Source of the DNA: Glaucostegus cemiculus
Lineage: Eukaryota
Assembly: GCA_976551045.1 (NCBI GenBank)
Contig: CDPCPM010000183.1
Coordinates: forward strand, 186,001-250,000
Length of the DNA: 64,000 nt
Direction: 5' to 3'
This document shows, one piece after another, positions 801-61,536 of the stretch (positions are counted from its first letter, which is position 1; every line of letters starts with the position of its first letter). The translations under genes and the position numbers were made by a program. The notes under the pieces are model-generated. The model worked only from the letters and a program-made list of their open reading frames with translations. It did no database searches and was not told where the DNA came from.

Positions 801-967
801 GGGAGACACAAGAGAGACTGCAGAGGTTGGAAATCTGGAACAACACACACAAAATGGTGGAGGACTGTGTCCTGGTGAAGGGTCTCGGCCCGAAATGTCG
901 ACTGTTCATTTCCCTTCATAGGCGCTGCCTGACCTGCTGAGTTCCTCCAGTGTTCTGTGTGTGTTGC
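801..967. mobile_element. Short fold-back Penelope-derived element with a degenerate hammerhead
   Basis: Inverted arms (caacacacacaaaatggtggagga / tcctccagtgttctgtgtgtgttg) enclose gtcctggtgaagggtctcggcccgaaatgtcgac. Flanked by the direct repeat tctcaga(c/t)tag at 790-800 and 968-978. Confidence 0.7.
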
Positions 968-1441
968 TCTCAGATTAGTGGGGGTATATTGACAGAGGCC
1001 AGTTTTAGTTGGGCTTTCAGATGAGGAGTTGGCAGCTGAGCCTCTCCTCTCCCACTTGTTGCGTGCACTTCTGGTCGCCACGCTACAGGAAGGGTATGAT
1101 TGCGCTGGAGAGAGTGCAGATGAGATCCATCAGGAAGTTGCCTGGATTGGGGAACTTTATACATGGGGAAGGATTGGACGGGCTGGGTTTGTTCTCCCTG
1201 GCCGGTAGGGATCTTCGATGATGGACATTGCCTCCTTGAGGCAGCTCCTCCTGTAGATACCACCGATGGTGAATCAACAGCTATGCACATCTTTACAGAA
1301 GCATTATGGTCTTCATGTGACAATTTTCCATTTTTAAGGGCAATATGTTGTATTTAAATAATAATTGTTATTTTTCTCATCAACCAACTGGCAACCATTG
1401 CAAGTAATTTTAGAATACTCGTATCATTTCTTCTTGCTCAG

Positions 1442-1479
1442 GCACTGGCAGAGGACTGATGACCACCAAAGCTCTCCAG
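1442..1479 (+). CDS. SETD4: SET domain-containing protein 4, internal coding exon (38 bp; (G)TGRGLMTTKALQ)
   Basis: Acceptor ttcttgctcag, donor gtcagt. The peptide is the SAM-binding GxGRGL motif, matching human SETD4 GTGRGLMSQTSLQ as recalled. Phase fits the next exon. Confidence 0.9.
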
Positions 1480-2404
1480 GTCAGTGATTTGTTTTTCAGT
1501 GGTGTTATTCCCTCCCTCCCTCCATGTCTTTCGAATGCCCTGGTTGGTCACTGTGATGGCCTGTTGTTCAGTTTGATTGTCCCATTGCTCTGAACAGCTC
1601 ACCCCGTGCTGGACCTGACTAAAACTGGACGTCACACTAGTACAGCTAGCAGGGCTGTTGCTTCGCAGTGCCAGACACCTGGGTTTAATCCTGGCTTTGG
1701 CTGCTGTCTGTGTGGAGTTTGCATGTTCTCCCGACGATGCTGAGGGTTTCCTCTGGGCAGTCTGGTTTCCTCCCACATTTAAAGATGTGCATGTTGATAG
1801 GTCAGTACCTTTTGTAAATTGCCAAATTGCCCTGGTGTACAGGTGAGGGGTAGAATCTGGGGAAGTCGATGAGAATGCAAGAAGAATTTTAAAAAAAGGG
1901 TTTTAATGTAGGGTTAGTGTAAATGGGTGGTTAATGGTCAGCAGGGATTCAATGGGCTGAAGGGTCTGTTCCCGAGCTGTATCTCTCCCTGACTCTGAAT
2001 GTGAATGTAACTATGGCACTGGGCTTATTTACTTGCTTTTGAAATGTTTAAGCACTGCAAGGCGGGAGTCCTGCAACGGTCACCCGACTCGTACTTCTGA
2101 GAAATGCTGCCTTGCGAGAGGCAGACTCTCGTGATGGGTTTCAGATTTGGGAAAAGAGATTGGTGGATTAATCGTTTTAAGTTGCAGAACGTGGAACAGT
2201 ACAGCCCAGGAGCAGGCCCTTCAGCCCACGATGTCTGTGCTGACCACATTGCCCAGTTAAAGTACATATCTTCTGCCTGCACATGATCCCTATCCCTCCA
2301 TTCCCTGAGGGATATGGATTACGACTGAGCTCTCTGCTGACTGTTTTCTCTCCCCTGCGGATTTGATCCTATGGCAGGAAGGAGTATTAAGTAACTAAAA
2401 CTAC

Positions 2405-2540
2405 CTTTACAGTTCCGATGAATGGTCCTTGACCAGATACGTTGACTCTTCCTCTCCACGCTGACTATGCTTCGCCTCCCAGAGCATTTCCAGCCATTCT
2501 CTGTTTTTATTTTGGATTTTCGGCATCTGCAGTTTTTCGC
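2405..2540 (+). mobile_element. Degenerate Penelope-type terminus (similar remnants at 7470-7545, 9585-9675, 26755-26810)
   Basis: cagttccgatgaatggtccttgaccagatacgttgactc...gcatctgcag aligns to 25705-25830. Confidence 0.55.
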
Positions 2541-2572
2541 TCCAACCTACTTCACTGTCGTTTCTCCTTCAG

Positions 2573-2661
2573 CCTGGAGAACTTGTTATTGCTTTACCTG
2601 AGGAATGTTTGCTCACCACCAGAACAGTCCTCGGCAGTTATCTGGGTGGATACATTGAGAG
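2573..2661 (+). CDS. SETD4: SETD4 coding exon (89 bp; PGELVIALPEECLLTTRTVLGSYLGGYIER)
   Basis: Acceptor tttctccttcag, donor gtatgt. Matches human EGQMIISLPESCLLTTDTVIRSYLGAYI. Confidence 0.93.
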
Positions 2662-3084
2662 GTATGTTGATCTCAGTGAAGCAGGATTTGATCTCATCAG
2701 CCACTGGAAGTATTACTTTAAATTTCAAATCATTTCTCTTGACGGGTTGAGCATAATCTATCAGATAGAATCATACGGCCCAGAAATGGATCCTTTTGCC
2801 CCATCTCCTCCGTGCCAACCACAATGCACTAATCCTCTGCCTGCATTAGGCATGTACCCCACCACCTACCTGTAACCTTGCCCGAAGCTCTTGTAAAGTT
2901 GATGCACATTTGTTGCATCTTCCTTCCTTGCTTTTATTATCTCATTGAAGAATTTTATTGCTTCTTACGCATAATCATCTATACCAGCTACTTCTGATTG
3001 TTTTAAGTATTGGGCAGACCATAGGGCCATAAAAACTTTAGGTCCAAAAGAGTTTCTAACTAAATTATTGGTAAATTCTGCCTT

Positions 3085-4100
3085 TAGGATGAGACTTTAA
3101 ACTGAGACCCTGTCTGTCCACTGAAATGGATGTAAAAGATCACAAGCCAAGAAGAGTAGGAGAATTAATTCTTCTGTGTCCCACCTGTTGGATCTGGTTA
3201 TTTTCGAATCCGCAGGTTCTTTCAGGAGTCCAAGAATGAGTTGAAGGCAACTTGGTGCTTCACAAAGTTTTATTGGAAAAGTTTATAACAAAGAAACAGT
3301 CACAGAGCACATGGCACTGGTTTTACTACTAGGAGATGAGCCGAGACAAAGGAACTAAGAATGAGCAAGTGCCGGAGGGGAAGAGAGCAAGAGGGAGATA
3401 GAGGCGAGAGAGAGAGAGACCAAGATAAGCAAGAGAGCAATTAACAAAAAAAGACACCTTTTATACCTGAGATAAGGTAACAATAGTCCAATCAGAATAC
3501 TCTTTCCCATTATTGAGTGATCCAATACCAGAGGCCATGCATTTGTGAGAGGGGGGCGGTTCAGAACGGACGTGAGGGGTACGTTTTTTACTGAGAGAGT
3601 GGTGGATGCCAGGAATGCATTGCCTAATAGGGCGGTGGAGGCAAACTCATTGGGGGCTTTTAAGAGGGGCTTGGATGGGCACATGAATGAGAGGAAAATA
3701 GAAGGATGTGGTTATTCTTTAGGTAGGAGGGAATAGCTATGTCGGCACAACATTGTGGGCCGAAGGGCCTGTTCTGTGCTGTACTGTTCTATGTTCTTAA
3801 AACCTATTAGATCCCTGTGGAAAAATCAACCAATGAGAAAACACGTATTCACCTGATGGACGAACCAATAAGCTTGGAAGCGGCCATCCCTTGTGCAGCC
3901 ACTTGAGGTGTATTAAACACGAAACATGTTAAAGAAAACTACTTAAGACAGTCGAATCCAACACACCCATTATTTAACTCTCAACCAATATCAGAAAATA
4001 AAGCAGATTATCTGGTCGTTATCACATGGCTAGTTGTGAGAACATGCACTGTGAAGAATTAGCTCCTGAGGCCCAACATTGACTACACTCCAAATGTTAT
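3085..4100 (+). mobile_element. SacSINE1-like (DeuSINE) copy split by the solo LTR
   Basis: ggatgagactttaaactgagaccctgtctg...gtaaaagatc on the left and cagattatctggtcgttatcacat...gactacact on the right match the recalled Deu-domain SINE consensus. Confidence 0.6.
3186..3963 (-). mobile_element. Solo LTR with an internal CR1 fragment
   Basis: Termini TGTTGGAT...ATCCAACA (perfect 8-bp inverted repeat), 4-bp TSD CACC at 3182-3185 and 3964-3967. Minus-strand TATAAAA (3459-3465) and AATAAA (3269-3274). Several CCAAT boxes. Confidence 0.75.
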
Positions 4101-4187
4101 TAAATGTTGAGACCTCCTGATGCATGGGAGTCACCCTTTCCTTGTTAATATTCTGCATTGGTTAAAGTTTTGATTTGTTCTTCCCAG

Positions 4188-4617
4188 GTGGAAACCACGT
4201 TTGTCTCCTCTCCAAGCCCTGTGTACGTTCCTCATCGCTGAGAGACATTTTGGGAGCCGGTCTCCCTGGAAACCTTACATCGATGTCTTGCCAAAGTCAT
4301 ACACCTGTCCAGTTTATTTTACAGAGGGTTCAATAAGACTGCTTCCTGGACCTTTGATTAAAAAGTCTTGGGAGCAAAAGAAAGTGGTTCAGGAGCTCTA
4401 CCTTACTTCCAAGTGCTTCTTCAATTCTTTGCAGCCCTTGTTTTCTGAAAGCATAGAGAATATTTTTACGTTCAACGCCCTGTGTTGGGCCTGGTGCAGC
4501 GTCAATACCAGGACAATTTATATGAAGCACGAACAGAGCAAGTTCTTTTCCAGAGAGCCCGATGTCTACGCTTTGGCACCATACTTAGACCTGCTGAACC
4601 ACACACCTGATGCTCAG
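4188..4617 (+). CDS. SETD4: SETD4 large SET-domain exon (430 bp; WKPRLSPLQALCTFL...ALAPYLDLLNHTPDAQ)
   Basis: Acceptor ttcttcccag, donor gtaaga. Lies in ORF 4201..4671. Contains WAWCSVNTR and the SET motif LDLLNH. Confidence 0.97.
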
Positions 4618-5212
4618 GTAAGAAGGCAGAAAGCAGCTATGGTTAAAATAGATCGTTCCACAGGAAGCTGACATAATGTCTATTAACAAATACTGCTGCT
4701 GCTCTTAATAGCTCTGCAATTAAACTCAATGAAATAATCTTTAAAGTTGGATAGGTCTTCTCTCTAACCTATGCCCCCTTCATCGTCCTTTTCTAGATGT
4801 GTTTGCATTTTTGTGCGTGACGTAACGTTGATTTATGTTCAGTGTTGTGTGTGGCTCCTCAAGGTCACGTATTGGTGCAAAGATGGTTGAGAGGAGATTT
4901 GACGATGGGGGGCGGGTACAAAATCGTGATTGGTTCATAGTGGGGAGCTGTTCCCATCAGCAGATGGTTCATTGCCAAGAGTACATAGATATAAAGTTGT
5001 AGGTGAAACTACTGGAAGGGACGTGAGGGGAAACCTTCTTATGCAGGGAGCAGTGTTGCAGAACTCGCTATCTGTCAGAGTGGCAGTCACTTGGGCTTTC
5101 AAAAGGAGTATAAAAAACTGCAGATGCTGGAAATCTGAAACATACTGGAAGCACTTAGCAGTTCCTCCCAGTTTCCCCTTCTCGTATCTTTTTAAAGATG
5201 CAAAAATTAATA

Positions 5213-5862
5213 GAATATAGAACACTACAGCACAGTACAGGCCCTTTGGCCCACAATGTTGTGCCAACATTTTAGCCCGCTCTAAGATCCATCTCACCCT
5301 TCCCTCCCACACAGCCCCCTATTTCTCTATCATTCATGTGTCTATCTAAGAGTCTCTTAAACATCCCTAATGGATCTGCCTCTGCTGACAGTGTGTTCAA
5401 CGCACCCACCACTCTCTGTGTGGAAAAAAAAACTTACCCCTGACATCCCCCTTATATCTTCCTCCAATCACTTTAAAATTATGCTCCCTCATGTTAGCCA
5501 TTTTTGCCCTGGGAAAAAGTCTCTGACTGTCCTCTTGATCTATGCCTCTTAGTATCTTGTACACCTCTTTCAAGTCACCTTTCGTCCTCCTTCTCTCCAA
5601 AGAGAAAAGCCCTAGCTCACTCAACCTATCCTCATAAGACATGCTCTCCAATCCAGGCAACATCCTGGTAAATCTCCTCTGCCCCTTCTCTAAAGCTTCC
5701 ACATCCTTCCTATCATGAGGCGACCAGAACTGAACACAATACTCCAAGTGTGGTCTAACCAGAGTTCTACAGAGCTGCAACATTATCTGGCAGCTCTTAA
5801 ATTCAGTCCCCTGACTAATGAAGGCCAACACTTCATACGCCTTCTTAACAACCCTATCAACC
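5213..5862 (-). mobile_element. CR1/HER1-like LINE 3' fragment
   Basis: ORF 5397..5885 (LVRPHLEYCVQFWSPH...QRRFTRMLPGL) and the CR1 3' tail. Confidence 0.9.
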
Positions 5863-5864
5863 TG

Positions 5865-7155
5865 TGATGATGAGATTTTCCACACCAGTGCCTTTAAGAT
5901 GTCTTCCTTTTAATGTAACCATGGCTTCCCCTTGGCTGACAAGGCTCTTAGCTCTTTTTCCTACACTTTGCTTTCATCTCCCTGTCACCCCAGGCAGACA
6001 GGTTTCCTCGACCTTATCTTCCAGCCGTCCAGGATTCACATCAATGCATCATCGATAATTTCTGCTGACTTCATTGCGATTCCACCACTAGACACATCTT
6101 CCCTCCTCTTTCAGCATTCAGGAGGGATCGTTCCTGCTGCATCTTCCTGGTCTGTGCTTGCATCTCACCTGTCATCCCCTTTCTCACACCACTTCCCCAT
6201 GCCATTGCAGGAAGTGCAATGCTAGACCTTTTAACCTCTTTCCTTCCCACCATCCAGGGACCCAAACACTCCTTCCAGTTGAACCAATGATTCACACGTA
6301 CTCCCTCCAATTTGGTTTAATGCACTGGGTGCTCACCATGTTGTCTGCTCTACGTTAGAGAAGCCAAATGCAGGTTGGGTGACTACTTTAAGAACACTTC
6401 TCTTCAATCTACGCGCGTGACTCTGAGGTTCACTTTAATTCTCTGTCCCACTCCCACTCTAACCTCCCATGTCTGTGGTCTCCTGCATTGCTCCAATGAT
6501 GCCCAGTGCAAACTTAAAGAACAACACCTCAACTTCCACCTGGACACGTTGCAGCTCTTGGGACTTAATATTGAATTCAACAATTTCAGCTAACCACTCT
6601 TGAACTAACTACTCTCATATGCTAAAAGGTGATCTCTTGGACTCTTGATACCTTGCCATGGCCCTTGCACTTTATTTGTCTACCTGACCTGCACTTTTTC
6701 TGCAACTATAACACTACATTCTGCAATATCACCCCCCTCACCTGCCTATCAAACCCCCCCCCCCCAACACCTGGATCTACCCATCGTTCTCCCCGTGTCT
6801 GTGTGGATTTCCTCCGGGTGCTCCGGTTTCCTCCCACATTCCAAGGCCGTATGGGTTAGGAAGTTATGGGCATGTTATGTCGGCGCAGGAAGCGCGGCGA
6901 CACTTGCGGGCTGCCCCCCAAAATCACTGTGCAAAAGATGTATTTCACTGTGTGTTTCGATGTACATGTGACTAATAAAGATTTTATCTCTCGCCTGCCA
7001 GCTCTTGCTCCAGTCCTTCTCCCACCTCTTTACACTGGCTATCTCCTCTCTTTATTTCCAGTCCAGATGAAGGGTCTCCACCCGAAATGTTGACTGTCCA
7101 TTACCCTCTACGGATGCTGCCTGACTCGCTGAGTTCCTCCAGCTCTTTGTGTGTT
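5865..7155 (+). mobile_element. Decayed Penelope-like element (RT-EN linker, GIY-YIG, 3' end with hammerhead) with nested LINE-tail and SINE fragments
   Basis: KLKEQHLNFHLDTLQLLGLNIEFNNF in ORF 6375..6593 is homologous to the 22139 copy. cagtccagatgaagggtctccacccgaaatgttgactg at about 7059-7096. Confidence 0.75.
6786..6983 (+). mobile_element. 5'-truncated V-SINE-like element, tail A, nested in a PLE end
   Basis: Same core and tail as 14428-14683, ending gtgactaataaaga. Confidence 0.8.
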
Positions 7156-8721
7156 GCACCATATTCTGCATTCTGTTTTCCTTCTTACTACCTCAACGCA
7201 CTTGTGTACGAAATGATCTGTCTGGATGGCATGCAAACAGAAGCTTCTCAGTGTACCTCAGTACATGCGACAATAATAAACCAGTTTCATTTCCAATTTG
7301 CTCTTTCCACGGATGTGACTGTACGCTTTTGTTTCAGTTTATTTCCTCTCTTTTCCCCCTTCTGTCTCCATCTGCTGGTTTTTAAGTTGTTACCTTGACA
7401 ACTGTAGTCTGCACCCTATCACAGCGGTTCATCCTGTTCTTGCTGCTCCTCTCTGCAACTTCAAGCACGCTTTTCCAGTTCTGATCACCGGTCCTTCACC
7501 TGAACTCCGTCACTCACTCCACAGCTACTGCTTGATCCGCTGAGTTGTATTGAAGGGTGTTTGGATCGACGCTTGCCAGGAAGTAAGTTAATCCAGTGGG
7601 AAAGAGCAGGGAATGGGATCAAATCGTCTGCTAGATAAGGAACTGGTGTGTTGGAGACACTAGACTGCAGATTGGTATTGGTTTATTATTGCCACTTGTA
7701 CCGAGGTACGGTGAAAAGCTTGTCTTGCATACCAGTCGTACAGGTCAATTCATTGCACAGTGCAGTTACATAGTTAGTACAGAGTGCATTGATGTAGTAC
7801 AGGTAAAAACAACAGTACAGAATAAAGTGTCACAGCATGAGAGAAAATTCAGAGCAATAAGGTGCAAGGTCACAACAAGGTAGATCGTGAGGTCAGAGTC
7901 TACCTCATCGTATAAGGGAACTGCTCAATAGTCTTATCATAGTGGGGTAGAAGCTGTCCTTGAGCCTGGTGGTGTGTGCCGTCAGGCTCCTGTATCTTCT
8001 ACTTGATGGGAGAGGAGAGAAGAGAGAATGTCCTGGGTCTTTGATTATGCCGGCTGCTTCACCAAGGCAGCGAGAGGTAAAGACAGAGTCCAATGCAGGA
8101 ATCCGGAGCAACGAATCTCTCCTGGTGCAGGATTTCAACATGAAACATAGATAATTCCTTCTCACCTCCCCCACCCCCCCACCCCAACCCCCCCTCCGCA
8201 GGTGCTGTTCTTCCGGGAAACTGGTGTGTATTCAGTGGGTCGCACAACCTCTTTCTCTCCGGCTGCCCATTCATCCGAGACCACTGTTACAGCCAAATCA
8301 ATAATTGGCCTTCTCCATTTAAGATTTCAGGGTGGTTCCAGATGTCCTCCCCTGCAGTATTCTGCTGTGTCCTGCCCCGACCCCGTGCTGTCTCCGTGTT
8401 CACCCGTTCCTTCAGTTGGCAACCTTGACAAAACCATTGCCGATCCTTCTGCCAAGGTTTTCAGGACCAAAGTGTCAAGATGACTTGCTGACAGGAAGGA
8501 AAGCACCCAGCGCGAGCCAGCCTGAGCTGCTGATCTGTCCTCTCCTAGCAACGGTTTCCAGAGCAAGATTGGCATGAGTCGGGACCCTGGTCCAATGGCC
8601 ACCCAAGGCTCCGTGCCCCATTTCCCACCCAGAGAAACGAGTGTGAGTGGGAAAGGAAAACACCCGCTGTAGCCGTGACACAGAGATCGGAGAGTTAGCA
8701 GCAGCCATCCACAATTTTTGT

Positions 8722-8985
8722 GACATAGAACACTGCAGCACAGTACAGGCCCTTCAGCCCACAATGTTGTGCCGACATCCTGCTCTCAGACCTGTCTAAC
8801 CCTTCCTTCCCACATAGCCCTCCATTTTTCTATCATTCATGTATCTTAAATGTCCCTAATGTATCTTCCCCCACAACCTCTGCCGGCAGTGTGTTCCATG
8901 CACCCACCACTCTCTGTGTAAACAAAGAAACTTACCCTTGACATCCCCCTTATACCTTCCTCCAATCACCTTAAAATTATGACAC
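8722..8985 (-). mobile_element. CR1 3' end fragment
   Basis: Homologous to 5213-5480. Confidence 0.8.
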
Positions 8986-9747
8986 GCTTTTGTTCAGGAA
9001 AGTGACCCAGAATCCAACAAAATGTGGATGCTAGCCACAGCAGTGTTAAAGGATGTTGCCAAAGAGTTGGACTTTTACAAAGGGAGCAGGAGGAGGAAGA
9101 GCCGACATTGATGATCACACAAGAGGCCAAGCCTGGAAGTTGGAGGGGCAGAGGAGATTGCACAGGTGGGGAGGGGCCAAGGTCTTAGAGAGGGTTAAAC
9201 ACAAACATGACGTTTCAGCGTCTGTGGAGGCAAAGGGATGATTAACATTTCAAGTTCAAGTTTATTCTCATGGCGTACATACCCAATGTATAAACGCCGT
9301 GAAAATTAGCTTCTTCCAGCAGCAGCATAATACATTACAAACATAAATTAGGTAAACTTAAATTAACATAAATTATACATAATTTGCGTAACATAATAAA
9401 CAAAATTAACATAATGACATTGGTGCTAGTTGAGGGAGTTGAGATCCTGTGTCAGGTCCTTGCCTTCCCCACCTCTGACCCTGTAACTTCCAGAGCTCTC
9501 TGTTCCAGGTTTGGCCGCTTGCTCAGTCATCACTGTTGGCTGAGCCAAAAGCCCTTCCTTAAACCTCTCCGTCCTCCTGCTCCTCTGCCTCCACGGATGC
9601 TGCCCGACCCACGGAGTTCCTCCAGCAGCTGGCTTCTGTGCTCCAGATCACAGCATCGTCAGTCTCTTGTTGCTCCGTGACATTCCAGTTTTGTGCACCC
9701 TGAGCTGTTCACAGATCGAGTTTGACTTGTATTATTTTTGCTGTCAG

Positions 9748-11211: not shown

Positions 11212-11237
11212 AATGTGTGTTTGGTGTTGGATTTCAG

Positions 11238-14330: not shown

Positions 14331-14427
14331 TAGGTTGTGTTGATGCTTTGTTGCTCCCTGCTGGTACTTATGTGCCTTCTCCAGTCACACAAAATAGATT
14401 CACAGAGTCATACAGTATTGAAACAGG

Positions 14428-22029: not shown

Positions 22030-23240
22030 GTAATGTTTCCCGCATTTCCCCCAATTTCACAGGTCCCTGCACTTCTCCGAGACTCACGAGGGCCTGTGCT
22101 CTCCTAGGACTCAATAGGTCCCCAATTGCCATGCTCCCTTGAGATTCTCTGTGTCCTGGTTCCCATGTTTCCCTGAATCCAGCCATGTTATTTATTGCAT
22201 CTGGTGCTCCTGGTGCAGCCTCCTCTACATCGGTGAGATCAGACACAGATTGGGTAACCGCTTCGACAAGTACCTTTGCACCATCTGCTGTGCCCGCCGG
22301 GATCTCCCGGTGGCCAGCCATTTCAATTCTACTCCCCATTCCCTCACCAGCATGTCTGTCTGTGACCTCCTCCACTGCCTGGTTATGGCTAAGTGAAAAC
22401 GAGAGGAACAGCACCTCATATTCCACCTGGGCAGTCTCCAACCTGGCGGCATGAACATTGAATCCTCAAACTTTAGGTAACCACTCCCCCTCTTCCCCCA
22501 GTTTTCATTTTTCTCCTGATCTGACCAGCCCCCATTACCCTATCTCTTTTTCTTCCCCCACCCTCTTCATCTGCCCATCACCCACACACACTCCTCCTAC
22601 CAGTTCCCCTCCCCACTTCCTTCCCTTTATTCCATGCTCCAAGACAAGACTAGACAAGATTTCTTTATTAGTCACGTGTACATGGAAACACGTAGTGAAA
22701 TGCATCTTTTGTGTACAGTGTTCTGGGGGCAGCCCGCAAGTGTCGCCATGCTTCCGGCGCCAACACAGCATGCCCACAACTTCCTAACCCATACGTCTTT
22801 GGAATGTGGGAGGAAACCGGAGCACCCAGAGGAAACCCACGCAGACACGTGGAGAATGTACAAGCTCCTTACAGACAGCAGCCAGAATTGAACCTGGATC
22901 GCTGGTGCTGTCCTCTCCTATCAGATTCCACCATCTTCAGCCCTTTGTCACTTCTACCTGTCACCTCCCAGCTTCTGACACCATTCCCACTCTACCTCTG
23001 CCTGATCTGCCTATCACTCCCCTCACCTGGATCCACCTATCACCCGCCAGCTCTTGCCCCTCCCCTTCACCCCCACCTTTTTTTATTCCAACTATCTTTC
23101 CTCTTTCCAGTCCGGAAGACAGGCCTCGACCCGAAATGTCAACTGTCCATTTCCCTCCACGGATGTGGCCTGACCCACTGGGTTCCTCCAGTGTTTTGTG
23201 TGTTGCTGCAGGATCCAGCATCTGCAGTCTCTTGTCTACC
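22030..23240 (+). mobile_element. Penelope-like retroelement 3' part: GIY-YIG endonuclease remnant, pyrimidine-rich 3' region and degenerate hammerhead; interrupted by a SINE
   Basis: ORF 22139..22396 reads VIYCIWCSWCSLLYIGEIRHRLGNRF...VASHFN, the GIY-YIG/CCHH pattern of PLEs, followed by EEQHLIFHLGSLQPGGMNIE. Hammerhead-like cagtccggaagacaggcctcgacccgaaatgtcaactg at about 23108-23146. Confidence 0.85.
22652..22908 (-). mobile_element. V-SINE-like element, tail A, nested in the PLE
   Basis: tctttattagtcacgtgtacatggaaacac...ccagaattgaacc. PLE sequence resumes after it. Confidence 0.8.
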
Positions 23241-25199: not shown

Positions 25200-25840
25200 C
25201 CATCTACCGCCTCCCATCCCTCTTTTCCCCCTCCCCTTCCAGTCTTCCTTCCCTTCCCAGTATCTCTTGAACCAGTTGTATCCGGGAATATTTAGTACCC
25301 AGTCCTGTCCACCATTTAGCTACTGTAGGCCACAACATTATTATTCCATTTCTCTAACTCCCAGTAGCCCCACCCCTTCTTTTTTCTCCCCCCCCCCCCA
25401 CCAACTCCTTTGTCTTCCCTTATTCCTGTGGCTCCCTTCCCCTGCCTTAATGACCTGCCCATCTCCTCTCCTCCCCTCCTCCATCCTTTATTCCATGGTC
25501 CACTGCCCTCTCCTACCGAATTCCTCCTTCTTCAGCCCTTTGCCTCTTCTACCTATCACATCTCAGCTTATTACATCTTCCCTCCTCCTTCCCCCACTCA
25601 CCTACCTTCCCCCCCCACTCACCTGAACTCACCTCTCCCCTGCCTGTGTGTGCTCCTCCCCCTCCCCCCACCTTCTTATTCTGGCTTCTGCCCTCTTCCT
25701 TTCCCGTCCTGATGAAGGGTCTCGACCCGAAACGTCGACTGTTCATTTCCCTCCACGGATGCTGCCTGACCTGCTGAGTTCCTCCAGCACTTTTTGTGTA
25801 TTGCTCCAGATTCCAGCATCTGCAGAATTCCTTGTGTCAT
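25200..25840 (+). mobile_element. Penelope-like element 3' region (C/T-rich) ending in the hammerhead-bearing terminus
   Basis: Collinear with 22460-23240 and 6730-7155. Confidence 0.75.
25706..25739 (+). ncRNA. Minimal type I hammerhead ribozyme motif in a Penelope-like element end (best-preserved copy)
   Basis: GTC-CTGATGA-A-GGGT(CTCG)ACCC-GAAAC-GTC-GAC: intact CUGAUGA and GAAA boxes, 4-bp stem II, GUC triplet, GUC/GAC stem I, palindromic ACGU in place of stem III. Confidence 0.75.
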
Positions 25841-28339
25841 CATTATTCCATGTGGCTAACCGGGCCAGCTTTCCATTAACCTTGTTTAATGTGCACCATG
25901 TGTTTACGTGAATCTATCTTCAATTTCAAGAGGCAGAGCAAGAGTTCGGAAGTGGGATCAGATTGGCTAGTTGCTGCTCAGCCAGTGTGAGTGTACGGAA
26001 GTGGATCTGAAACCATTTGTTGGTACTCCTCTCTGTACTGTGCTACCCAGTCTATTCACTACCTCAGTGTGAATGTCCCACTTGGCAGATTTGGTCTCTG
26101 TTTCTCTCTTTTTCTGAACTTGTTGGCACTTGCTGGTGTTGAGCTCCACAGACTCCAGCCATCCTGCATTGCCTTGCTCATGAAGTTATTGTTCATTAAT
26201 TGGACGTCCCAACTTAACTGGATTGTGTGTTCGCAGTCCCCAGCCCATGCTGTGATGCTGACGTTTTTAGCATGGTTGGCTGGACAAAGATCAAGAGCAA
26301 AAACCCCAGCTGCATCCCTTTCTCACCCTGATCTCTTCCCCTCTCAGACATTCTGGCTGGCCTGATGCTCTCTCCGACTCTTAGTGACTTGACTCGAGCC
26401 AGCGATCTTTCTGAAGCATTGTATTACATCAGTGACACTCAGGGGGCCAAATGGAAAAAAATACAATTTTTTTTTTGTTATTTTTGCCTTTTGACAACGT
26501 TTATGATTAAGTTGTAACATGAAAACAAAACACTAGAAATTAAACATAAAATGCTGGTATTAACTTTTTTTTTTCATTTATACCTTCTCCAGAGCGCTTT
26601 TTTAAAATTATTCATTACTACCTTTCTGATCCCCTTTCACCCTGCTGTTTCTCCTCTTTCGTGATTCGGTCTCTCTTGCCTTCCTTTCCATTCTCTCTGC
26701 CTCTCCTCTCCCTTCCTCATCCGTCCCATTGCTTGCTCTGCATCTTAAAACTTTTCCCAGTTCTGATGAAAGGACATCTGTCCACATGGTGAGTAATTCC
26801 AGCATGTTCTCCTATATTGGCTTAAGTTAAAATCCAAGGCTCCAGTCACCACCTGAACAGCTAATTTACACATGCAATCTGTGCAATAAGCAGAGATGTG
26901 TAAATTCACTCCTTCCCCAAGTAAGTAAGGATCCTCAATGATTTAGAAACAGCTGTTTTCCCTCCACCATCAGATTTCATGAACCCGTGAACACTATCTC
27001 ATTATTCCTTTTTGTTTGCATTATTTATTTGCTTTTGTATTTTATAGGATTTTTTATGTTTTTGCACCGTACTGCTGCCACAAAACAACAGATTTCATGC
27101 CATATAAGTCAGCAATAATAAACTCGATTCTGACTCGAAGCGTTAAAAATTGGAATTGGATTTTTATTGTTACTTGTACTGAGGTACAGTGAAAAACTTG
27201 TCTTGCACACCATACAGACAGATCAATTCATAACACACTGCATTGAGGTGGTAGAAGGTAAAACAATACAGAATGCAGAATTAAATGTCACAGCTACAGA
27301 GAAAGTGCAGTGCAGGTAGACAATAAGGTGCAAGGTCATAATGAGGCAGAAAAAGTAAGAAAGTGAAATGCAGACCTGCTTTCGGAAATGTATTTTGCTG
27401 TATTTATTATAGAAATGAAAGCTTTTGGCAAAATCCAGCTACCTGAATTCTTTCAGTTCAGAATAAGGTTTATGATCACTGACTGATATGATGTGAAATT
27501 TCCTCCTACTTTGGAAAGTTCCGGGGTCTGCAAGAAGATTTAGTTGTCTAGATTTTTACCAAGAGAAAGCTGGGGTCTTGGCTTTAACTAAAGCAAATTG
27601 GTATTGGCTTCTGCTTGGTCAATACAGATGAGTGTTCTCCAGTTTATATTGAAGCTGGAGTCCATGTGACTTAACTCCAGTCCTGTTTTTGAATGTGAGT
27701 GGTGCAATGAGAGCTCCTCCTGATGAGCTTTGAAAAGAGAATGAATGCTTTGTGCCTCTCGGCTGCCTGTTCCAATTACACTGACGGAATCCCAAAGGCA
27801 AATGCAGCAAAACCGTCTACAAGAGACAGAGATGATACCAGGATAGCCGAGACTGCCAGAATTAGAGGAGAGGAAATAATACAGGGAATTGTTAGACTGC
27901 AGGAAAGATGGCTGGAAACATTGGTCTGGGCCAAAATGAGTGAAGAAAAGTGCTCGTCTTGTATATGTTCTGCCTGCTGTTTCTGTGTAAAAAACCCAGG
28001 AAGCAACAGCAGGAGTATGACCAGAGGCATATTGGTATCACACAGAGTACGGACTCAGTGCTCCTCGCAAAGTTGGCAGAACTTACTGCCATCTTTGTCT
28101 GACCAGAATTTCAAATTAAGCTGACAAAATCCTGAGGGATTTTGTTTTACAAGTAATCTCTGTGAATTAACAAATTCTTTGTCTTGATTTGATCCTTTCG
28201 GATTGAGCGAGACCACCAGATCACCACGCCTGCATTTAGTGAAGCCTCCTCGCTACCAGTTTCAGATTTACCTTTTCTGGGTTGAGCAGAGGGAGCGATT
28301 TGCAGAATGTTGATTGGATTATCTGGTCGGTTTGTGATG

Positions 28340-41501: not shown

Positions 41502-41627
41502 ACACAAGAGACTGCAGAGGCTGGAATCTGGAGCAACAAATAATCTGCTGGAGGAGCTCAGTGGGTGAGCAGCATCTGTGGGGGAGAAGGAACTGTAGAC
41601 ATTTTGGGTCAAAATCCTGCATCATTA
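41502..41627 (-). mobile_element. Penelope-derived terminal fragment with a 12-bp TSD
   Basis: Direct repeat tgtttaatgagg at 41490-41501 and 41628-41639. Internal sequence is homologous to the 25710-25840 end, with a degenerate hammerhead. Confidence 0.7.
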
Positions 41628-44589: not shown

Positions 44590-47384
44590 CTGTGACAGAG
44601 CAGAAATTCAATTAGTCTACTGCCCCTTAGAATAGTATTTCTCAATAATTGATTAACAGAAAGGTGAACCATTCTAGTCAATGATTTTGGTTCACAATAA
44701 AAACTGCTTAACTTTTAAAATTATGAATTTCTACTGTGCATCTAAACACTTGTGAGCTTAGCTATAAAGCAGTAAGAGCAAACCAAATCTTGAGAGAAAA
44801 AAAATCAAAGTGTGATGGTACACGAGGGCAATTGACAAGTACTGTACAAGTACCAACATCTAGAATGCAGAGCAAAAGTTCTAAACAAAATTGATACCTT
44901 AAAATTAGATTATTAGCTAGCCTATAATTAGAAGTATACAGAGCTGATCAAAACCAATTTTTAACTTAAAGTAGTGAGAGACACGGTAGGGCAGGTGATC
45001 TGTTGTGGCAATAGCATGGAGCCGCTGGGATCATGGTGATCTACAGCTGCCTCTACCGAAGTAACCATCTGCACTGAGCAATTTGGGCTCAGAATTGATG
45101 GAACTCAAACTACAAACAGTGCAATGCATCAGGAAGGGAGAAAGTTACCTGGACACATGTTTCCAAGAGGCAGTCACATCCCTCAGATTAAATACTGTAG
45201 ATTTGTCAATGGTTAGGGACCGGAAATAAGGCAGGGACTGTAAATAAGGCAGCTACAGAGATACAGAAGGTAATATTGGAGGAGCCTCAAGGACTTACAT
45301 TTGTCATAAAGTCATTTGGCTATTCATTTTTCATTTCGTAACAGTAAAGATTTTCCACTGAAGGAATAAAAAGTTTCTACAAGAAGGACCTGTGGTTGAT
45401 TAAGTCAGTGAATGATGGTATCAACTTGAAAATAAATATTGTGACTATGAATACAGACTAGAAGACCAATAAAATGTAAGAAAAAGCCAGAATAGAAGCT
45501 AACAAGAAATATAAAAACAAACAAGTGCTTCTACAGATGACAGATAGGAAAACAAATTGTGAGGACAGAGACTGCAAAGGGATATTGAGTGAGGAAAAGT
45601 CAGTAGGCAGCGAGGAAAAACTTGGCCGATGGGGGATAGTGGTGGGGAATTGCAATGAATCCACTTTTCGTGGGAAGAACAAAGCAGAATAAATGGAAAG
45701 CGATCACAATATATTTAGTGATTTGGATTATCCCACGCATGAAAGACAGTGGGTACAGCAAGTATTTCTTTCTGCAATAGGCAAAAAAAACCAGACAAAT
45801 GTAAAATTTAAAAAGGATTGCAGAATTTTATCACTCCAGAAAGTTTTTATGATGCCTGATCAGCAAGACTGATCAAAAAATAAAAATTATATCTGTGATG
45901 GCTTTTCTTCTGAAGTGATAATTAGTCACAATGTTTAGTCAAACTGATGATTATAAAACATGTTTTTTCCACTAACTTCAATGATTTATGAATTAATATT
46001 TCAAGTTATGAAAATAACTTCATACTTAATAAACCATGTCATCATGCTGCATAATGATTGGTTATTATTATTTAAATTATATTATTGCCCACACAATGCA
46101 GTCACAGCTTTAAATTTTGTCACTGATTGTAGAGTATTAAGTTTTCAATCCCAATCACTTGGTTTATCTTATTCTCCCAACAGGCGAAATGTAAACCAGA
46201 GACCAACTCACAGACAAATGTAGTTAAAATCTTTCTAACAAGATGCAAGTATTAATGAACTCGTTGCATTTGGAAAGATGACTTCAGGGTTAAATTTCTT
46301 TTCCCATCCCTAAAAATACTCGTGGACCAATATGATGACTATTAAGCTCTACTGAGCTGAAAAAACAGCTGCAGGGAAGTGGGAGCATTCAATGATGTCT
46401 ACATACACAGACACCAAATTCTGAAGATAAAATGCAAGTACTTAGCTCAAGCAGTATCCAGTTTAATCCAAGAAAATTAATCACTATTTTGTTTGATGTT
46501 GAGATAATGCTCTTTTAAAAGCTGTTGTGTTCTATTAGCGCAAATGTTCATTCACTCAGTAAACACTTCTGGCACATGCATATAATAGAATCTGAAATAC
46601 AGTGGGGTGTGTAAAATAGTTTTGGAGAAACAACTGAGCAACTGAATGTTCTTTCATGTTTGGATTGTTTAAAGGCCAATAATTACTTTTATTTACATAT
46701 CAAGGGCCTTTAAGAGGGAAAAAAAAACAATCCTTGTCTCTGGGTAGGCAATGTACAGTTTGATCTTCAAAGCCACCACTGAAGTTTGACGGAAAAATGG
46801 AAGGAAATCAAAAAATTGCAACATACCCCAAAACATGTCATAATAACTCAGACAGAATTTGATTAAATTTAGAAACCATAACCACGGGCTTGCTCTTTTG
46901 GTTGAAAAAAATTCCAGGTAGCAGAGCCAAAATTGAGACCCAAAATACCACTTCCTGAGGGAGCTCCCACCAAGGCAGGAGCAATACCTAACTGATAATG
47001 CAACACTGCTGCTAAAATCACTATTACCATTATACTGTAATATAAATGCAACATTGTATATTTACTTTGCAGGCTGGAAGTTAAAGGGGGAAGAAAATAA
47101 TTTCTAGGTTTTGGTTTTGAACTAAGACATTACTAAGAGACAATGACTTACCTACCAAAGGTTGTCGAATGCCTTAGGTTTTGCAGCCATAAGCAGACCA
47201 AAGACAGGAAATAGAGGAGAGAACAAAATTAAAAAATGGAAAATAATCCATCAAAACAATAAAAAAATAAAAAAATATTTAAAAATCAACACACGGTTCA
47301 AGTCGAGTACATTGCTGCAATATGAGAAATGATTTATTCAAATACGAAGATCCAACATCATTATTTTGATTTAGGTTAAATTTC

Positions 47385-48760
47385 ATCACTTTTGCTGACA
47401 ATTACCACGCTGCTCTCACTTTCACATGGCCCATCTCTGATTCTTCTTCTTTCTTCCCCAATTTCTCTTTTACCATCATGGGATGGGTTAGTGATTTATA
47501 CCTATTACTAGACCACAACTATCTTGGACTACTCTTCTTCCCTGTTCTGCTTCCTGTACATCTCCATTCTATTCTCCCATTATCTCTCGCTCCATAGATC
47601 TGTTCTGATGCCAACATTTTCCACATCAGTGCTTCAGAGATGTCTTCTCTTCCTGTGGTCTCCCTTTTGCTATAGTTACCAAGCATTCAAAAACATCTAT
47701 GTCCCTCATTTCTCCTCTCAACCCCTCTTTCCACCCAGAACAATAAGGTCGCACTTACCTTATCAGCCTCCATATTCAATGGATGATACTCTGGAATTTA
47801 TGCCCTCTTCAATTAGATTCCACCACATCTTCCCTTCCCCTACTCTTTCCCCATTCCAAAGGGACTGTTCCCTCTGCAGTTCATTGATTAACTGTTCTAT
47901 TTCCACCATCTATTCCCCCTTTCATGGCATGTTCCTGTTCCAAATGCAAAAGATTCAACACCTATGCTTTTGCCTCTTTCCTTCCCACCATCCAGAGACT
48001 CGTATACTCTTTTGAGGAGAAGCAATGATTCACTTGCACTTCTTTCAGTTTACTGCATTCAGTGCTCACAATGTGGCCTCCTGATTACTGAGGAAATCAG
48101 ACATTAATTGGGTGACCCTTGTACAGGACTGAGCTTCCAACTGCCTGTCACTTTAACTTTCTATTCCACTCTGACCTCTGTCTTCGGTTGCCTACATTGT
48201 TCCAACAAAGCCCAATGTAAGCCTGAGCAACAGGTATTATCCAGGTGCTCAACAGCTCCAAGGAGTCAACACTGATTTCACTCATCGCTGATAACTACCA
48301 TTTCCATTAGAACTGGTCAGTGCTGATACAAGGTTACAATGTGCGATATTACCTTAGTATTATCTCTCTCCACAGATACTGCCTGACCTCCTGGGTACTT
48401 TCAGTATGTTTACAGTAACTTCAGTGTGCTGTATCAGATCCAGCATTGTGTTTTGTTTTGTCCCTTCCCCTCGGCTCCTGTGTCTTTATTCATCTCCCTC
48501 CATTTAAACCCTCATCCAAACAGAAAAGCTCAAATAAATAAGCTTTCACCACCCTCTCTCAGATAGCACCATCATTCTTTGCAATATTTTGATCTGTTTT
48601 TGCTAGCCAACCTCTGACAGACATCTCCTTGTTCTCTCTGCAACCTTAAACAGACTTGTTTACTTACTTTCCCTTGTTGACATGAAAAGGTTATTGACCC
48701 AGAACATTACATCCGTTTCCCTCTCCACAAAGGCTGCCTGCCCTGCTGAGTACCTAGAAC
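47385..48760 (+). mobile_element. Old Penelope-like element remnant (RT C-terminus, GIY-YIG, two degenerate termini)
   Basis: tgcattcagtgctcacaatgtggcctcc and cctgtcactttaac are homologous to the GIY-YIG copies. gctgcctg-type termini at about 48375 and 48730. Confidence 0.6.
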
Positions 48761-48769
48761 ATATTCATC

Positions 48770-58119: not shown

Positions 58120-59040
58120 AAAGAAATAAAATGCTGGAAATACTGTGTATTTGCAGAGACAGAAACTGGTTTTTACCATTTCATCAGAATGGGGAATAGC
58201 TGGAGATGAAGCAGATTTTAACATGTGGGGAAAGAGTGGATGGGAACACAGAACAAGAGGGAAGGCTTGTGATTAAATGGAAGGCAGAAGAGATTAACAG
58301 AGCAAGCAGGTGACAATGCAAAGTGAAAAGAGACGGTATTAGAGAACAAGGTGGTGGTCTGGAGAAGAGAGTACAGCAATTATTTAAAATTACTGAGGTA
58401 ATGTGGAAACACTGCTGGAAATGTGAATGAAAATGTCAAGAATACCAATTATCTGTAATTGTTGACTTCAAATATATTGATTCCTAAAGGCTGCAATGTG
58501 CCCATCTGGAAGGTGATGTGCTTTTTCTCAAGTTACATTAAGTTTTGTTGGAACAGTGTAGGAGGCTGGAAGCACAGATCAAAAATGGGAAATAATACAT
58601 ACAATTAAAGTGACAGGTGGCTGGAAGTTGAGGGTTTACACTTGCAGACCAAACAGTAGGGTTCTCAAAAGTGGTCACCAAAGTGTGTCTGTTCATCCCA
58701 ATGTTGAGAGACCACATTCTGAGTGCAAATACACTACACCAAATTGAAAGCAGCACATAGGTTGTAAAGTGAAAACACAGGGAATTCTATCCAAGTTCTG
58801 GCAGCGAGAAGGAGCTAGATCAGAAATGTGGGAAATGAAGTGCTAGAGTTGCCAACATGATGCAAGGGAATATGTTGGAAGCACAGAACAGATGCGAGAA
58901 TGGAATGCTGACAGATGTTGGGTGGGAAGAAATGGAGTTATGGCAGTGGTGGGAATCTGTGGACTTGCAGTGGACACTAATCACAAGCTTATGCCAGAGA
59001 TGATAGATATGGAAAGAAGAATCAGAGATGGACCAGTTAA
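58120..59040 (-). mobile_element. Old Penelope-like element remnant on the minus strand
   Basis: Reverse complement resembles the GIY-YIG region. ctgatgaaa and tccagcattt terminus at about 58130-58190. Confidence 0.55.
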
Positions 59041-59194
59041 AAGCAAGAATGGGGTAGAAATTGCAATTTAAAAAAAAAAATTATGCTGTCCTTGAATGGT
59101 TTGTCTTTTGTGACTCTCTTTGCTCCATATTGTACTGAGTTATATTGGAAGCAAGACTTGCAAAAATCAGGCCTAACTGGCCATTCTACACTTT

Positions 59195-60174
59195 TGTAAT
59201 CCCAGAGAGCGAGTTGACTGACCAAGACGGGTGAGGAAAACTGAGGATGGTCAGAGAGCAGGAAGTGGGGCTGAAGTAGGTGATCACTAAATCACGGAAG
59301 AAGGCAACTTCTAAGTCTTCATGATGCACATACATATATTCTTAACAGGGCACAATATTAGACAGCAAGTAGAATCGGGAATCATTGAGCTTTGTAGCAG
59401 CCTGAGCAGTATCAAGGATCCCATTAGGCTCTGGGAGGACACTCTGCTGGCCATAAGCAGATGCTGGGAACCAAGAACAAAGAAGCCCAGTGAAGCAAGG
59501 TCACATGATCAACACCTGGTCAGTACCAACCTGAGAACATAGCTGAGATGGCTTTTCGTCCTGCCATGAGCTATCCTACTGGGAGCCATCTGGAGAACAG
59601 AACAAGCAAATAGGATTGTTTTGGGAACGGCATCTTGTGAAAGGGAGAGTCTGACGAATTGCAACAGCACAAACAGACACTCTGATAATTAAGAAACCAA
59701 TGGTTGAAGTAATTGTGGAACGTTGCCAGCAAGGACTTGAGGATGTTAAAGAAACATACTCTTATGGATAAGGGTTGGAATCACAGCTGTGTCAATGGCA
59801 ATAAAGAACTAAGCAATGTTTGGAAGGTATGCAAAGAAATGCATAAAAAGGTGCCTTTTGAAATGACCAGCAGCAGTGACTACAGAGACCAACCACTGAA
59901 GAAGGGACTCGGAGAAGAACTCACCAAGATCAAACCCTGGCCAGTTCATCAAGAGTGGGTGCTATCCAAATCCAAATAGTGAATTTTGGAAGTTGTGAAA
60001 GTGAACTAGAGAGTTGTGCAACTAAAAGACTTATGAAACTAAAGAGTTAATGAATCTTGTTTGAAACTGTGTAGTGAAGCTTTGAGTTGTTCGAACTAAT
60101 TGCGATTAATAAAGTATAGTTATTTGGTAAAGCTATTGGTGTGTTTTATCATGCACTGCATATAACTGATAACA
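59195..60174 (+). mobile_element. Probable solo LTR
   Basis: TGTAAT...ATAACA termini flanked by CTTT on both sides. CCAAT at 59697, TATA-like CATAAAAA at 59842, AATAAA at 60108. The left boundary is ambiguous (alternative at 59109). Confidence 0.45.
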
Positions 60175-60209
60175 CTTTTCTCCTAGCCCAGGAATGATAA
60201 AGACAATAT

Positions 60210-60992
60210 TCAAGTCAAGTCGAGTATATTGTCATCTGCACAAGTACATGTATGCACAGGTGCAATGAAAAGCTTACTTGCAGCAGCATCATAGGCACAT
60301 AGCAGCATACGAGCAATAGAAAAAAACACAAATTATACACAATTTTTAATAAGAAAGAACACAAAACAAAAAATCTGAAGTCCATTTTAGTGCAAAGTGA
60401 TCAAAGCAGTCATAGTGTTACTGAACTGTAGTGATTAAGGTTGTGCCAGTTAGTTCAAGAACCAATTGATTGAAGGGAAGTAGCTGTTCTTGAACTTTGT
60501 GGTGTGGGACTTCAGGCTTCTGTACCTCCTGCCTGATAGTAGTGTAAAAAGATGGCATGGCCCAGATGATGGATGTTGCCTTCTTGAGGCAGCGCCTCCT
60601 GTAGATACTAACAGTGGTGGAGAGGGATATGCCCATGATGTATTGGGCAGAGTCCACTACTCTCTGCAGCTTCTTAGATTCCTGTGAATTCAAATTGCCA
60701 TACCAGACCAAGATGCAACCAGTCAGGACACTTTCAGCAGTACATTTGCAGAAGTTTGTTGGAGTATTCGGTGACAAACCAAACCTCCTAAGTAAAGACT
60801 CTAGCACATTTTCCTTATGATTACATTTATGTGCTGGGCCTAGGACAGGTCATCTGATATATTAACACACAGGAACTTAAAGCTGCTGACTCTCTCCACC
60901 AATGATTCCCCAACATAGACAGGCACATGTTCGCCCTCCTTCCAATCTACTCTTTAGTTTTGTTGATGTTGAGCGAGAGGTTGTTCCCTTAA
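60210..60992 (-). mobile_element. Rex1/Babar-like LINE 3' fragment (related + strand tail at 51510-51765)
   Basis: ORF 60418..60807 reads NFCKCTAESVLTGCILVWYG...KKLQRVV. Confidence 0.8.
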
Positions 60993-61268
60993 CACCAGCC
61001 TTACTGACTTTAAATAAAGCGGCAAAGGTCCAGGAACTAATTGCACGCGTTATTCCCCAATGGAGCCTTCAGGGGAAATCTAAATGCATTTTGGACTCTA
61101 TTGTTTCTCAGCACCATGTTCAGTGTTTGCACAGAAAATGATGCTAAATGTTTCACATATGGAGTTAAGTGATTTTCAAAAAGAAATGCCATACCCTAAC
61201 ATTTTCTGGATAAATCCTTGACCAACAGGATCAAAACAACAGACCATAAAATTACATCACAAACTTAC

Positions 61269-61341
61269 CCTCAATAACAACACCAGCAACTTCTCTTCCA
61301 ATTGGTAAGAAATCTTCCTGCACTTTTAACTCTGCCAGCAG
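61269..61341 (-). CDS. CRYZL1: CRYZL1 coding exon (73 bp; LLAELKVQEDFLPIGREVAGVVIE)
   Basis: Acceptor tatatctag, donor gtaagt. Contains the MDR-family GxExxGxV motif. Confidence 0.93.
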
Positions 61342-61357
61342 CTAGATATAAAATTAA

Positions 61358-61536
61358 GAGAAACAAAGGACTGCAGATGCTGGAATCTAGATGAAGAACG
61401 ATGATGCTGGAGGAACTCAGCAGGCCAGGCAGCATCCATGGAGAAAAGCAGGCAGTCAACGTTTCACATCAGGACCCTTCTTCAGGGCCCAAAACATTGA
61501 CTGCCTGCTTCTCCCCAGATGCTGCCCGGCCTGCTG
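61358..61536. mobile_element. Short fold-back Penelope-derived element with a 14-bp TSD
   Basis: Perfect direct repeat agatataaaattaa at 61344-61357 and 61537-61550. Internal inverted arms of about 50 bp. Minus strand reads ctgaagaagggtc...gaaacgttgactg. Confidence 0.8.

What the first reader, a model, noticed from the sequence alone, without database searches (positions are those of the whole stretch)
801..61536. Dispersed family of about ten hammerhead-bearing termini in one 64-kb window
Seen: variants of cagtc-ctgatga-agggtc..gaccc-gaaacgt(c/t)-gactg followed by gatgctgcctgacctgctgagttcctccagca on the + strand at about 868, 2410, 7059, 7477, 23108, 25706, 26757 and 48680, and on the - strand at about 41600, 58175 and 61455-61487. 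Four follow GIY-YIG remnants, which ties the motif to PLEs. The rest are solitary. Inference: a very high-copy ribozyme-bearing retroelement family, partly non-autonomous (retrozyme-like), whose ribozyme may not be annotated in this lineage.
Basis: partly seen in the sequence, partly recalled or inferred. Interest (0 to 1): 0.7.

Follow-up and report, generated by a model that had tools for sequence, protein, structure and literature searches.

The report
Decayed Penelope transposon ends with hammerheads
These scattered repeats are end-pieces of a very common Penelope-like jumping gene in what is likely a ray genome, carrying a tiny hammerhead RNA motif already known from such elements; only one copy here keeps the whole motif, the rest are likely inert, and there is no sign of a separate "retrozyme" element.

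Summary
The repeat family is real, but "ten ribozymes" overstates it: 2 of the 11 named sites keep the whole catalytic core and 1 (25704-25741) also keeps stems and palindrome. The motif is the minimal type I hammerhead in the terminal repeat (pLTR) of a Neptune-type Penelope-like element (PLE). It lies about 350 nt behind the GIY-YIG domain in 20 of 20 endonuclease-chosen loci and directly before the ORF in 5'-complete copies. Sampling 800 kb gives about 380,000 termini genome-wide; this window has ordinary density. Solitary copies are 5'-truncated or inverted by-products of the PLE, with its bimodal 3' "tail". I found no tandem arrays, no shared deletion family and no discrete RNA ends, so a retrozyme is not supported. 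The association is published (Cervera 2014; Craig 2021; Li 2026 preprint). Two small extras: 5' junctions pile up at the hammerhead's 5' edge, not at its cut site, and a subfamily with A9 changed to C amplified. This scan noted the same reading, the fixed start and 14-bp duplications before, in this and other shark or ray genomes.

The parts
803..865 (-). inverted arm (tail only) of a heads-inward terminus pair
868..971 (+). terminus, subfamily A, starts 3 nt before the core; A6 changed; pair flanked by an 11-nt near-repeat (below my TSD threshold)
2405..2535 (+). old, degenerate terminus; U4 and A14 changed
5979..6587 (+). PLE thumb-linker-GIY-YIG remnant with stops
   Evidence: tblastn E=7e-27
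7055..7175 (+). 3' terminus of that copy; U4 changed; separated from the ORF remnant by another repeat at 6785-6997
7471..7546 (+). very degenerate terminus remnant
   Evidence: nhmmer E=5e-4
9587..9668 (+). tail-only remnant, hammerhead absent
22175..22477 (+). GIY-YIG endonuclease remnant
   Evidence: 64% identity to P0003, E=5e-34
22908..23236 (+). 3' UTR and terminus of that copy; U4 changed, stem II 3/5
25345..25844 (+). best copy: last ORF codons, 3' UTR, terminus with long tail (subfamily A)
   Evidence: 77% over 514 nt to L090; score 153
25704..25741 (+). minimal type I hammerhead: intact core, extra A before stem II, 5-bp stem II, ACGU palindrome in place of stem III, GUC cut site predicted after 25736
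26752..26800 (+). 5' half of an old terminus, stem II and GAAA box deleted
   Evidence: E=0.8
41502..41624 (-). solitary terminus, subfamily C (A9 to C), G12 changed; flanked by a 17-nt duplication with 1 mismatch
47376..48239 (+). very old RT-thumb and GIY-YIG remnants
   Evidence: tblastn E=2e-4 and 4e-5
48361..48438 (+). tail remnant behind that ORF remnant
48679..48758 (+). second, very degenerate terminus 355 nt further on, same strand
58130..58195 (-). trace of a terminus (first box only), assigned by its position behind the ORF remnant
   Evidence: not detected by the profile
58452..59101 (-). very old RT-thumb and GIY-YIG remnants
   Evidence: tblastn E=1e-5 and 7e-4
61368..61491 (-). 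terminus, subfamily B (N7=A); core letters intact, stems damaged
61486..61540 (+). inverted arm of that insertion; the pair lies between a perfect 14-bp target-site duplication

Best explanation
The repeats are the terminal repeat (pseudo-LTR: minimal hammerhead plus 95-130 nt tail) of a very abundant Neptune-type Penelope-like retrotransposon, left as 5'-truncated and inverted copies that are likely inert, in what is likely a batoid ray genome. Shown: the terminus sits at both ends of the element (after the GIY-YIG domain and directly before the ORF start); 3' ends fall in two groups about 35 nt apart; heads-inward pairs are common and often lie between 11-19 bp duplications; most copies have a broken core. 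Inferred from work on other PLEs: the RT-endonuclease protein cut the target, primed reverse transcription at one of two internal sites in the tail, often from both DNA ends, and usually stopped early, so that many copies hold only the terminus. The hammerhead lacks a real stem III and would fold into an active form only as a dimer through its ACGU palindrome, perhaps with protein help, in transcripts carrying two termini. Inferred here: cleaved RNA was not the main template, because 5' junctions show no spike at the cut site; many short copies end instead at the hammerhead's 5' edge, possibly the 5' end of the RNA. After insertion, CpG decay (G12 and the palindrome lie in CpG) destroys the motif.
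For: Terminus 330-370 nt behind the endonuclease, same strand, in 20 of 20 loci chosen among endonuclease hits for long open frames. In 13 of the 30 best loci for the ORF 5' region a same-strand terminus ends within about 30 nt of it (counted by eye). DKG, YIDD-type RT, CX4CX2C linker and GIY-YIG with CCHH residues seen in loci and homologues; CX2-5CxxC marks Neptune and Nematis (PMC8557442, passages). Closest proteins: Mobula and Hypanus, 59-75% identity. About 52,000 first-look candidates for the endonuclease, longest open frame 395 aa among 150 scored. 107 termini in 800 kb, 0 in the reversed control. Of 97 rows (93 distinct subfamily-B copies chosen by the tail alone) 3' ends cluster at +85..104 (40) and +120..139 (51), with 4 between. 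Neighbours under 1 kb: 18 heads-inward, 5 direct, 5 tails-inward. Duplications in 11 of 24 short inverted pairs, 0 of 275 shuffled controls. Core intact without indel in 5 of 59 random copies, with stems and palindrome in 1 of 59. Architecture (long stem II, extra base before it, palindromic 15.2-16.2, solitary and opposite-strand copies) matches PMC4209133 (parts 1-2 of 4 read).
Against: No full-length intact copy was seen, and clade assignment rests on motifs, not a tree. Only 1 of 29 short solitary B copies shows a duplication, which simple target-primed insertion does not explain. About half of B copies (51 of 93) start within -9..+51 of the core, more than uniform truncation predicts. Structure support is weak: the stem I pair -1/+28 covaries (C-G 26, T-A 12, mixed 12; p=0.0016) but ranks 10th of 291 pairs and is confounded by subfamily and CpG decay; the monomer's best fold is not the hammerhead. 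Cleavage itself was not tested.
Confidence: 0.9

Rival explanations
1. A non-autonomous retrozyme: short units bounded by hammerheads are transcribed, cut into monomers, circularised and reinserted by the PLE machinery.
For: 17 of 30 loci with the ORF 5' region are internally deleted, many with two same-strand termini 0.43-0.86 kb apart that could release a monomer. The preprint 10.64898/2026.07.22.740005 (parts 1-3 of 5 read) reports retrozymes of 363 bp average in one chondrichthyan; one same-strand pair 365 nt apart and one 355 nt apart (window 48361/48716) exist.
Against: All 17 deletion breakpoints differ and the one junction searched is unique among 40 scored matches. No array of the terminus in the window or in the loci held (one 40-nt local duplication only). 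5' junctions at the cut site +-1 in 2 of 93 copies, no more than neighbouring positions. No start or end peak, and no monomer joint among the joints shown, in three raw RNA runs of one study from a related organism.
Confidence: 0.05
2. A fixed-length SINE-like unit (hammerhead plus tail, 100-135 nt) transcribed on its own from a start at the hammerhead's 5' edge and mobilised in trans.
For: Junction rate 2.6% per nt at -9..-1 against 0.14% at -110..-10; about 15 of the first 100 core-bearing B copies end at 0..-7 and 1-2 at -8..-15 (counted by eye); some carry an extra G.
Against: Short copies carry the diagnostic letters of each autonomous subfamily; starts are spread over 60 nt; about half of the short copies are arms of inverted pairs (24 of 53); reads of the terminus run on into unlike flanks in 95-97% and lie on both strands.
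Confidence: 0.04
3. The hammerhead likeness is chance within an ordinary repeat end.
For: No Rfam hit; folding z-scores near zero; weak covariation.
Against: All four subfamily majorities keep both boxes, stem II, stem I and the palindrome with only N7, loop II, position 17 and (in C) position 9 varying; position and form match published PLE hammerheads.
Confidence: 0.01

Closest known systems
Minimal type I hammerheads (min-HHR) in pLTRs of metazoan PLEs (Cervera and De la Pena 2014, PMC4209133; parts 1-2 of 4 read, two supplements searched, file 1 not searchable)
   Same: No stem III, palindromic 15.2-16.2, extra base before stem II, short stem I, location in both terminal repeats, most copies solitary, some on opposite strands 100-700 bp apart; reported for fish Xena, Poseidon and Neptune elements.
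   Different: No cartilaginous fish named in what I read; copy number here (about 380,000 termini, mostly broken) far exceeds the 4,000-9,000 motifs counted by descriptor in coelacanth and Xenopus, though the counts are not of the same kind; stem II is 5 bp; one subfamily has C at position 9.
Neptune clade of EN+ Penelope-like elements (Craig et al. 2021, PMC8557442; passages read)
   Same: RT with DKG motif, CX2-5CxxC linker, C-terminal GIY-YIG; 5' truncation, partial tandems, inverted 5'-truncated copies, optional 30-40 bp tail, hammerhead in the pLTR.
   Different: No intact full-length copy seen; Neptune versus Nematis not separated by a tree.
Poseidon_Ac of Anolis carolinensis (Frangieh et al. 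2024, PMC11167929; parts 1-2 of 4 read)
   Same: Two RT start sites that define the tail; both DNA strands cut and extended; hammerhead not needed for insertion in vitro; no RNA-seq reads ending at the cut site.
   Different: There the ORF starts inside the hammerhead; here the AUG in the core opens only a short frame (absent in subfamily B) and the long frame starts about 45 nt behind the tail.
Non-LTR retrozymes (Cervera and de la Pena 2020, PMC7229834, passages; Li, Clavereau and Pollet 2026 preprint, parts 1-3 of 5)
   Same: Type I hammerhead; proposed origin from PLE pLTRs; reported in one chondrichthyan.
   Different: Defined by head-to-tail arrays of 150-450 bp units and abundant circular RNA; neither was found for this family.

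Membership tests
EN+ Penelope-like elements | RT followed by C-terminal GIY-YIG endonuclease in one ORF | tested here: met
   RT then EN in order in most of 30 RT-chosen loci; Pfam GIY-YIG E=0.003, below the curated cut-off; homologue P0021 has RVT_1 and GIY-YIG; all copies seen are broken
EN+ Penelope-like elements | Same terminal repeat before and after the ORF (pLTR) | tested here: met
EN+ Penelope-like elements | 5' truncation, inverted 5'-truncated partner, optional 30-40 bp tail | tested here: met
Neptune clade | CX2-5CxxC linker between RT and EN | tested here: met
   CX4CX2C in P0001, P0002; shorter variant in P0003; shared with Nematis
Neptune clade | RT phylogeny | not tested
   no named clade references were on hand
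Minimal type I hammerhead | Core boxes CUGANGA and GAAA, UH site, stems I and II | tested here: met
   majorities of subfamilies A, B, D and copy 25704-25741; not met at position 9 in subfamily C and in 9 of 11 window sites
Minimal type I hammerhead | Palindromic 15.2-16.2 allowing a dimer | tested here: met
   ACGU in all four majorities
Minimal type I hammerhead | Covariation in stems | tested here: inconclusive
   one pair p=0.0016, rank 10 of 291, confounded
Minimal type I hammerhead | Self-cleavage as a dimer | not testable with these tools
   needs an in vitro assay
Non-LTR retrozyme | Head-to-tail arrays with a hammerhead in each unit | tested here: not met
   none in the window or in 360 loci; whole genome not scanned
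Non-LTR retrozyme | One amplified unit independent of the ORF | tested here: not met
   17 of 17 breakpoints differ; one junction searched is unique
Non-LTR retrozyme | Abundant monomer or circular RNA | tested here: inconclusive
   no end peaks in ordinary RNA-seq of a related organism; such libraries can miss small circles

The most novel reading that the evidence does not exclude
The genome holds a fossil map of how PLEs copy themselves. The element's capped RNA starts at an initiator-like site 4-6 nt before the hammerhead core; RT priming in the tail of the 5' repeat runs off this end and yields the mass of 100-135 nt solitary termini; uncut RNA is the template; and a subfamily with A9 changed to C spread to thousands of copies, so either cleavage is dispensable for retrotransposition in vivo or the bulged base of PLE hammerheads lies between G8 and A9 rather than after A9.
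Probability: 0.3. Interest if true: 0.5.

Novelty: new member of a known kind. Interest (0 to 1): 0.2.

Why it matters
Mostly as annotation: hammerhead-like motifs in shark and ray introns should be read as PLE debris, about one terminus per 7-8 kb here, not as regulatory ribozymes or retrozymes. The role of the PLE hammerhead is still open, and this family offers hundreds of thousands of junctions plus natural core variants (N7, position 9, position 17) with which to test whether cleavage matters for retrotransposition and where the RNA starts.

Tried and rejected
Rfam scan: no hammerhead family, two weak miRNA-like hits on the 61.4 kb hairpin. Fossil of self-cleavage in 5' junctions: no spike, 2 of 93 within 1 nt of the cut; several junctions scored inside the hammerhead are alignment breaks in longer copies, so the rate there is an upper bound. 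Splicing to the acceptor-like sequence before the hammerhead: short copies share no upstream exon and the deletion junctions show no GT at the 5' break. Cap-derived extra G: 11 of 12 in the first sample shrank to G 42, A 38, T 20 in the first 100 of 219 genome-wide matches (counted by hand; about 26 G expected from base composition), so only modest support. Joining of inverted arms through stem complementarity: fits one pair (L279), no general rule by eye. One search had a two-column offset; its labels were discarded and redone, where 6 further random copies keep the core letters but carry an indel. No RNA holder listed for the window stretch; the raw runs laid were added by species label from an organism holding at most a third of the words. 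Luense et al. on PLE hammerhead variants is not held: title only seen, so the A9 variant or chondrichthyan examples may be in it. Searches for hammerhead+Penelope+shark, Penelope+elasmobranch (listing only) and hammerhead+A9C found no paper on this family. Supplement file 1 of PMC4209133 and the bioRxiv supplements could not be seen and may list the family. Dfam and Repbase were not available.
Full report
Observation. The window is G000:C183:186001-250000 of a 2.85 Gb genome. The repeat family is real: 12 profile hits at E<0.001, and 10 at score 20 or more with a profile from genome copies, against 0 in reversed sequence. The ribozyme claim holds for the family, not for most copies. Of the 11 named sites, 25706 and 61487 keep all core letters, and only 25704-25741 also keeps stems and the ACGU palindrome. 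Sites 26757 and 58175 retain only the first box. The loose core pattern is not enriched in the window (5 matches, 2.3 expected), and Rfam finds no hammerhead. The four GIY-YIG remnants are confirmed.

What it belongs to. An endonuclease frame from a related locus has about 52,000 first-look candidates in the genome; among the 150 scored none has an open frame above 395 aa. Its closest named proteins come from Mobula and Hypanus at 59-75% identity, so the host is likely a batoid. In 20 of 20 loci picked from those hits the terminus follows the endonuclease by 330-370 nt on the same strand. RT-chosen loci show RT, linker, endonuclease, 3' UTR and terminus in order, with DKG and YIDD-type motifs and a CX4CX2C linker, which Craig et al. 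give as a mark of Neptune and Nematis. In 13 of 30 loci holding the ORF 5' region the same terminus ends just before it (counted by eye), so it is a pseudo-LTR. The long frame starts about 45 nt behind the tail.

Abundance and decay. Sixteen 50-kb blocks taken at round coordinates hold 107 termini, about 380,000 genome-wide (bootstrap 278,000-492,000); 5 of 16 blocks are as dense as the window. Of 59 random copies spanning the core, 5 are intact without indel and 1 also has stems and palindrome; G12 and the palindrome lie in CpG and are 48-64% conserved. Exact 31-letter cores occur 357 times for subfamily A, 1,249 for B (N7=A) and 78 for C (A9 to C), with 0 for reversed controls; an older group D has a U-A pair closing stem I. 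Long copies of A, B and C each run back into a 3' UTR and endonuclease. C makes up 13 of 70 random copies at position 9.

How solitary copies arose. In 93 distinct B copies chosen by the tail alone, 3' ends are bimodal about 35 nt apart, the tail signature that Frangieh et al. traced to two RT start sites. Close neighbours are mostly heads-inward pairs (18 of 28 within 1 kb), and 11 of 24 short pairs lie between 11-19 bp duplications, against 0 of 275 controls, 1 of 29 short solitary and 3 of 40 long copies (long copies were not always fully held). In the window the 61.4 kb pair has a perfect 14-bp duplication and the 41.6 kb copy a 17-nt one. 5' junctions show no spike at the cut site (2 of 93). 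They run at 0.8% per nt inside the terminus, 2.6% at -9..-1 and 0.14% at -110..-10; a second sample agrees. About 7 of 17 internally deleted units also rejoin at this edge. A start of transcription at an initiator-like sequence (consensus recalled) would explain this; an extra G was striking in a small sample (11 of 12) and modest in a larger one (42 of 100). RT stalling on the hairpin and joining of two cDNAs remain rivals. PLE promoters inside the pLTR are known from Drosophila (PMC2377424, passages).

Retrozyme test. Tandem Repeats Finder finds no array of the terminus in the window or in the loci held. Internally deleted units with two termini 0.43-0.86 kb apart exist, but all 17 breakpoints differ and the junction searched is unique among 40 scored matches. 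In three raw RNA runs of one study from a related organism, family reads are 0.13-0.26% of records, lie on both strands, run on into unlike sequence in 95-97%, and show no place where many molecules begin or end; the ORF start region is covered some 50-100 times less. This fits read-through in host transcripts; it cannot exclude small circles.

Structure. The majorities of all four subfamilies keep both boxes, a 5-bp stem II, a 3-5 bp stem I and the palindrome. Covariation is weak and confounded, and the monomer prefers another fold (-9.6 against -5.5 kcal/mol), as expected for a motif thought to need dimerisation or protein. Cleavage was not tested.

Comparison and verdict. Cervera and De la Pena described this motif, its place in fish PLE pLTRs, solitary copies and opposite-strand pairs; Li et al. 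link retrozymes to pLTRs and include one chondrichthyan. My literature searches found no paper on this family, but a key paper, supplements, Dfam and Repbase were out of reach. Earlier notes of this scan reached the same reading in this and other genomes; they are not independent support, and one gave the lead for the duplication test. Verdict: a new member of a known kind, mostly inert; interest 0.2, with a modest open point in the junction pattern and the A9 variant.

Noticed in passing
window 4189-4557 (+), probably also 9781-9925: Exon of a SET-domain methyltransferase (weak match to SETD3 structures, E=2e-7; SETD4 is my guess); several termini lie in its introns.
   Followed up: partly
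L191-L220; window 41502-41624: Subfamily C with A9 changed to C while the next A stays 93% conserved, and a weaker stem I; at least 78 exact cores, 13 of 70 random copies.
   Followed up: partly
L001-L006 (contigs C3, C4): Six copies share long flanks on both sides and a change in stem I: a duplicated larger unit that carried one terminus, not separate insertions.
   Followed up: no
L333, L334, L338-L340, L342, L345-L347, L351-L354, L356, L359, L360, L335: More than half of the loci holding the ORF 5' region are internally deleted, breaking 280-630 nt into the element and rejoining at the 3' end, often at the hammerhead edge; suggests frequent template jumps.
   Followed up: partly
window 11415-11675, 17230-17620, 20140-20400, 22653-22913, 62787-63046, and inverted at 6785-6997, 14425-14646: Abundant SINE-like repeat with a tRNA-like end; inserted into the 3' UTR of two PLE copies, so younger than them.
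   Followed up: no
window 5397-5909, 10543-11233, 18463-19092, 60418-60849 (all -): Fragments of LINE-type reverse transcriptase frames of at least two families (assignment recalled, not tested).
   Followed up: no
run X23 laid on window 25560-25900: One subfamily-C-like copy with a fixed 5' flank gives about 3,000 one-strand reads: a terminus inside a highly expressed transcript of the related organism.
   Followed up: no
just 5' of the hammerhead in all subfamilies, e.g. window 25690-25708: Pyrimidine run plus CAG resembles a splice acceptor; in D. virilis the PLE intron ends at helix I (PMC4209133). No spliced copy was seen here.
   Followed up: partly
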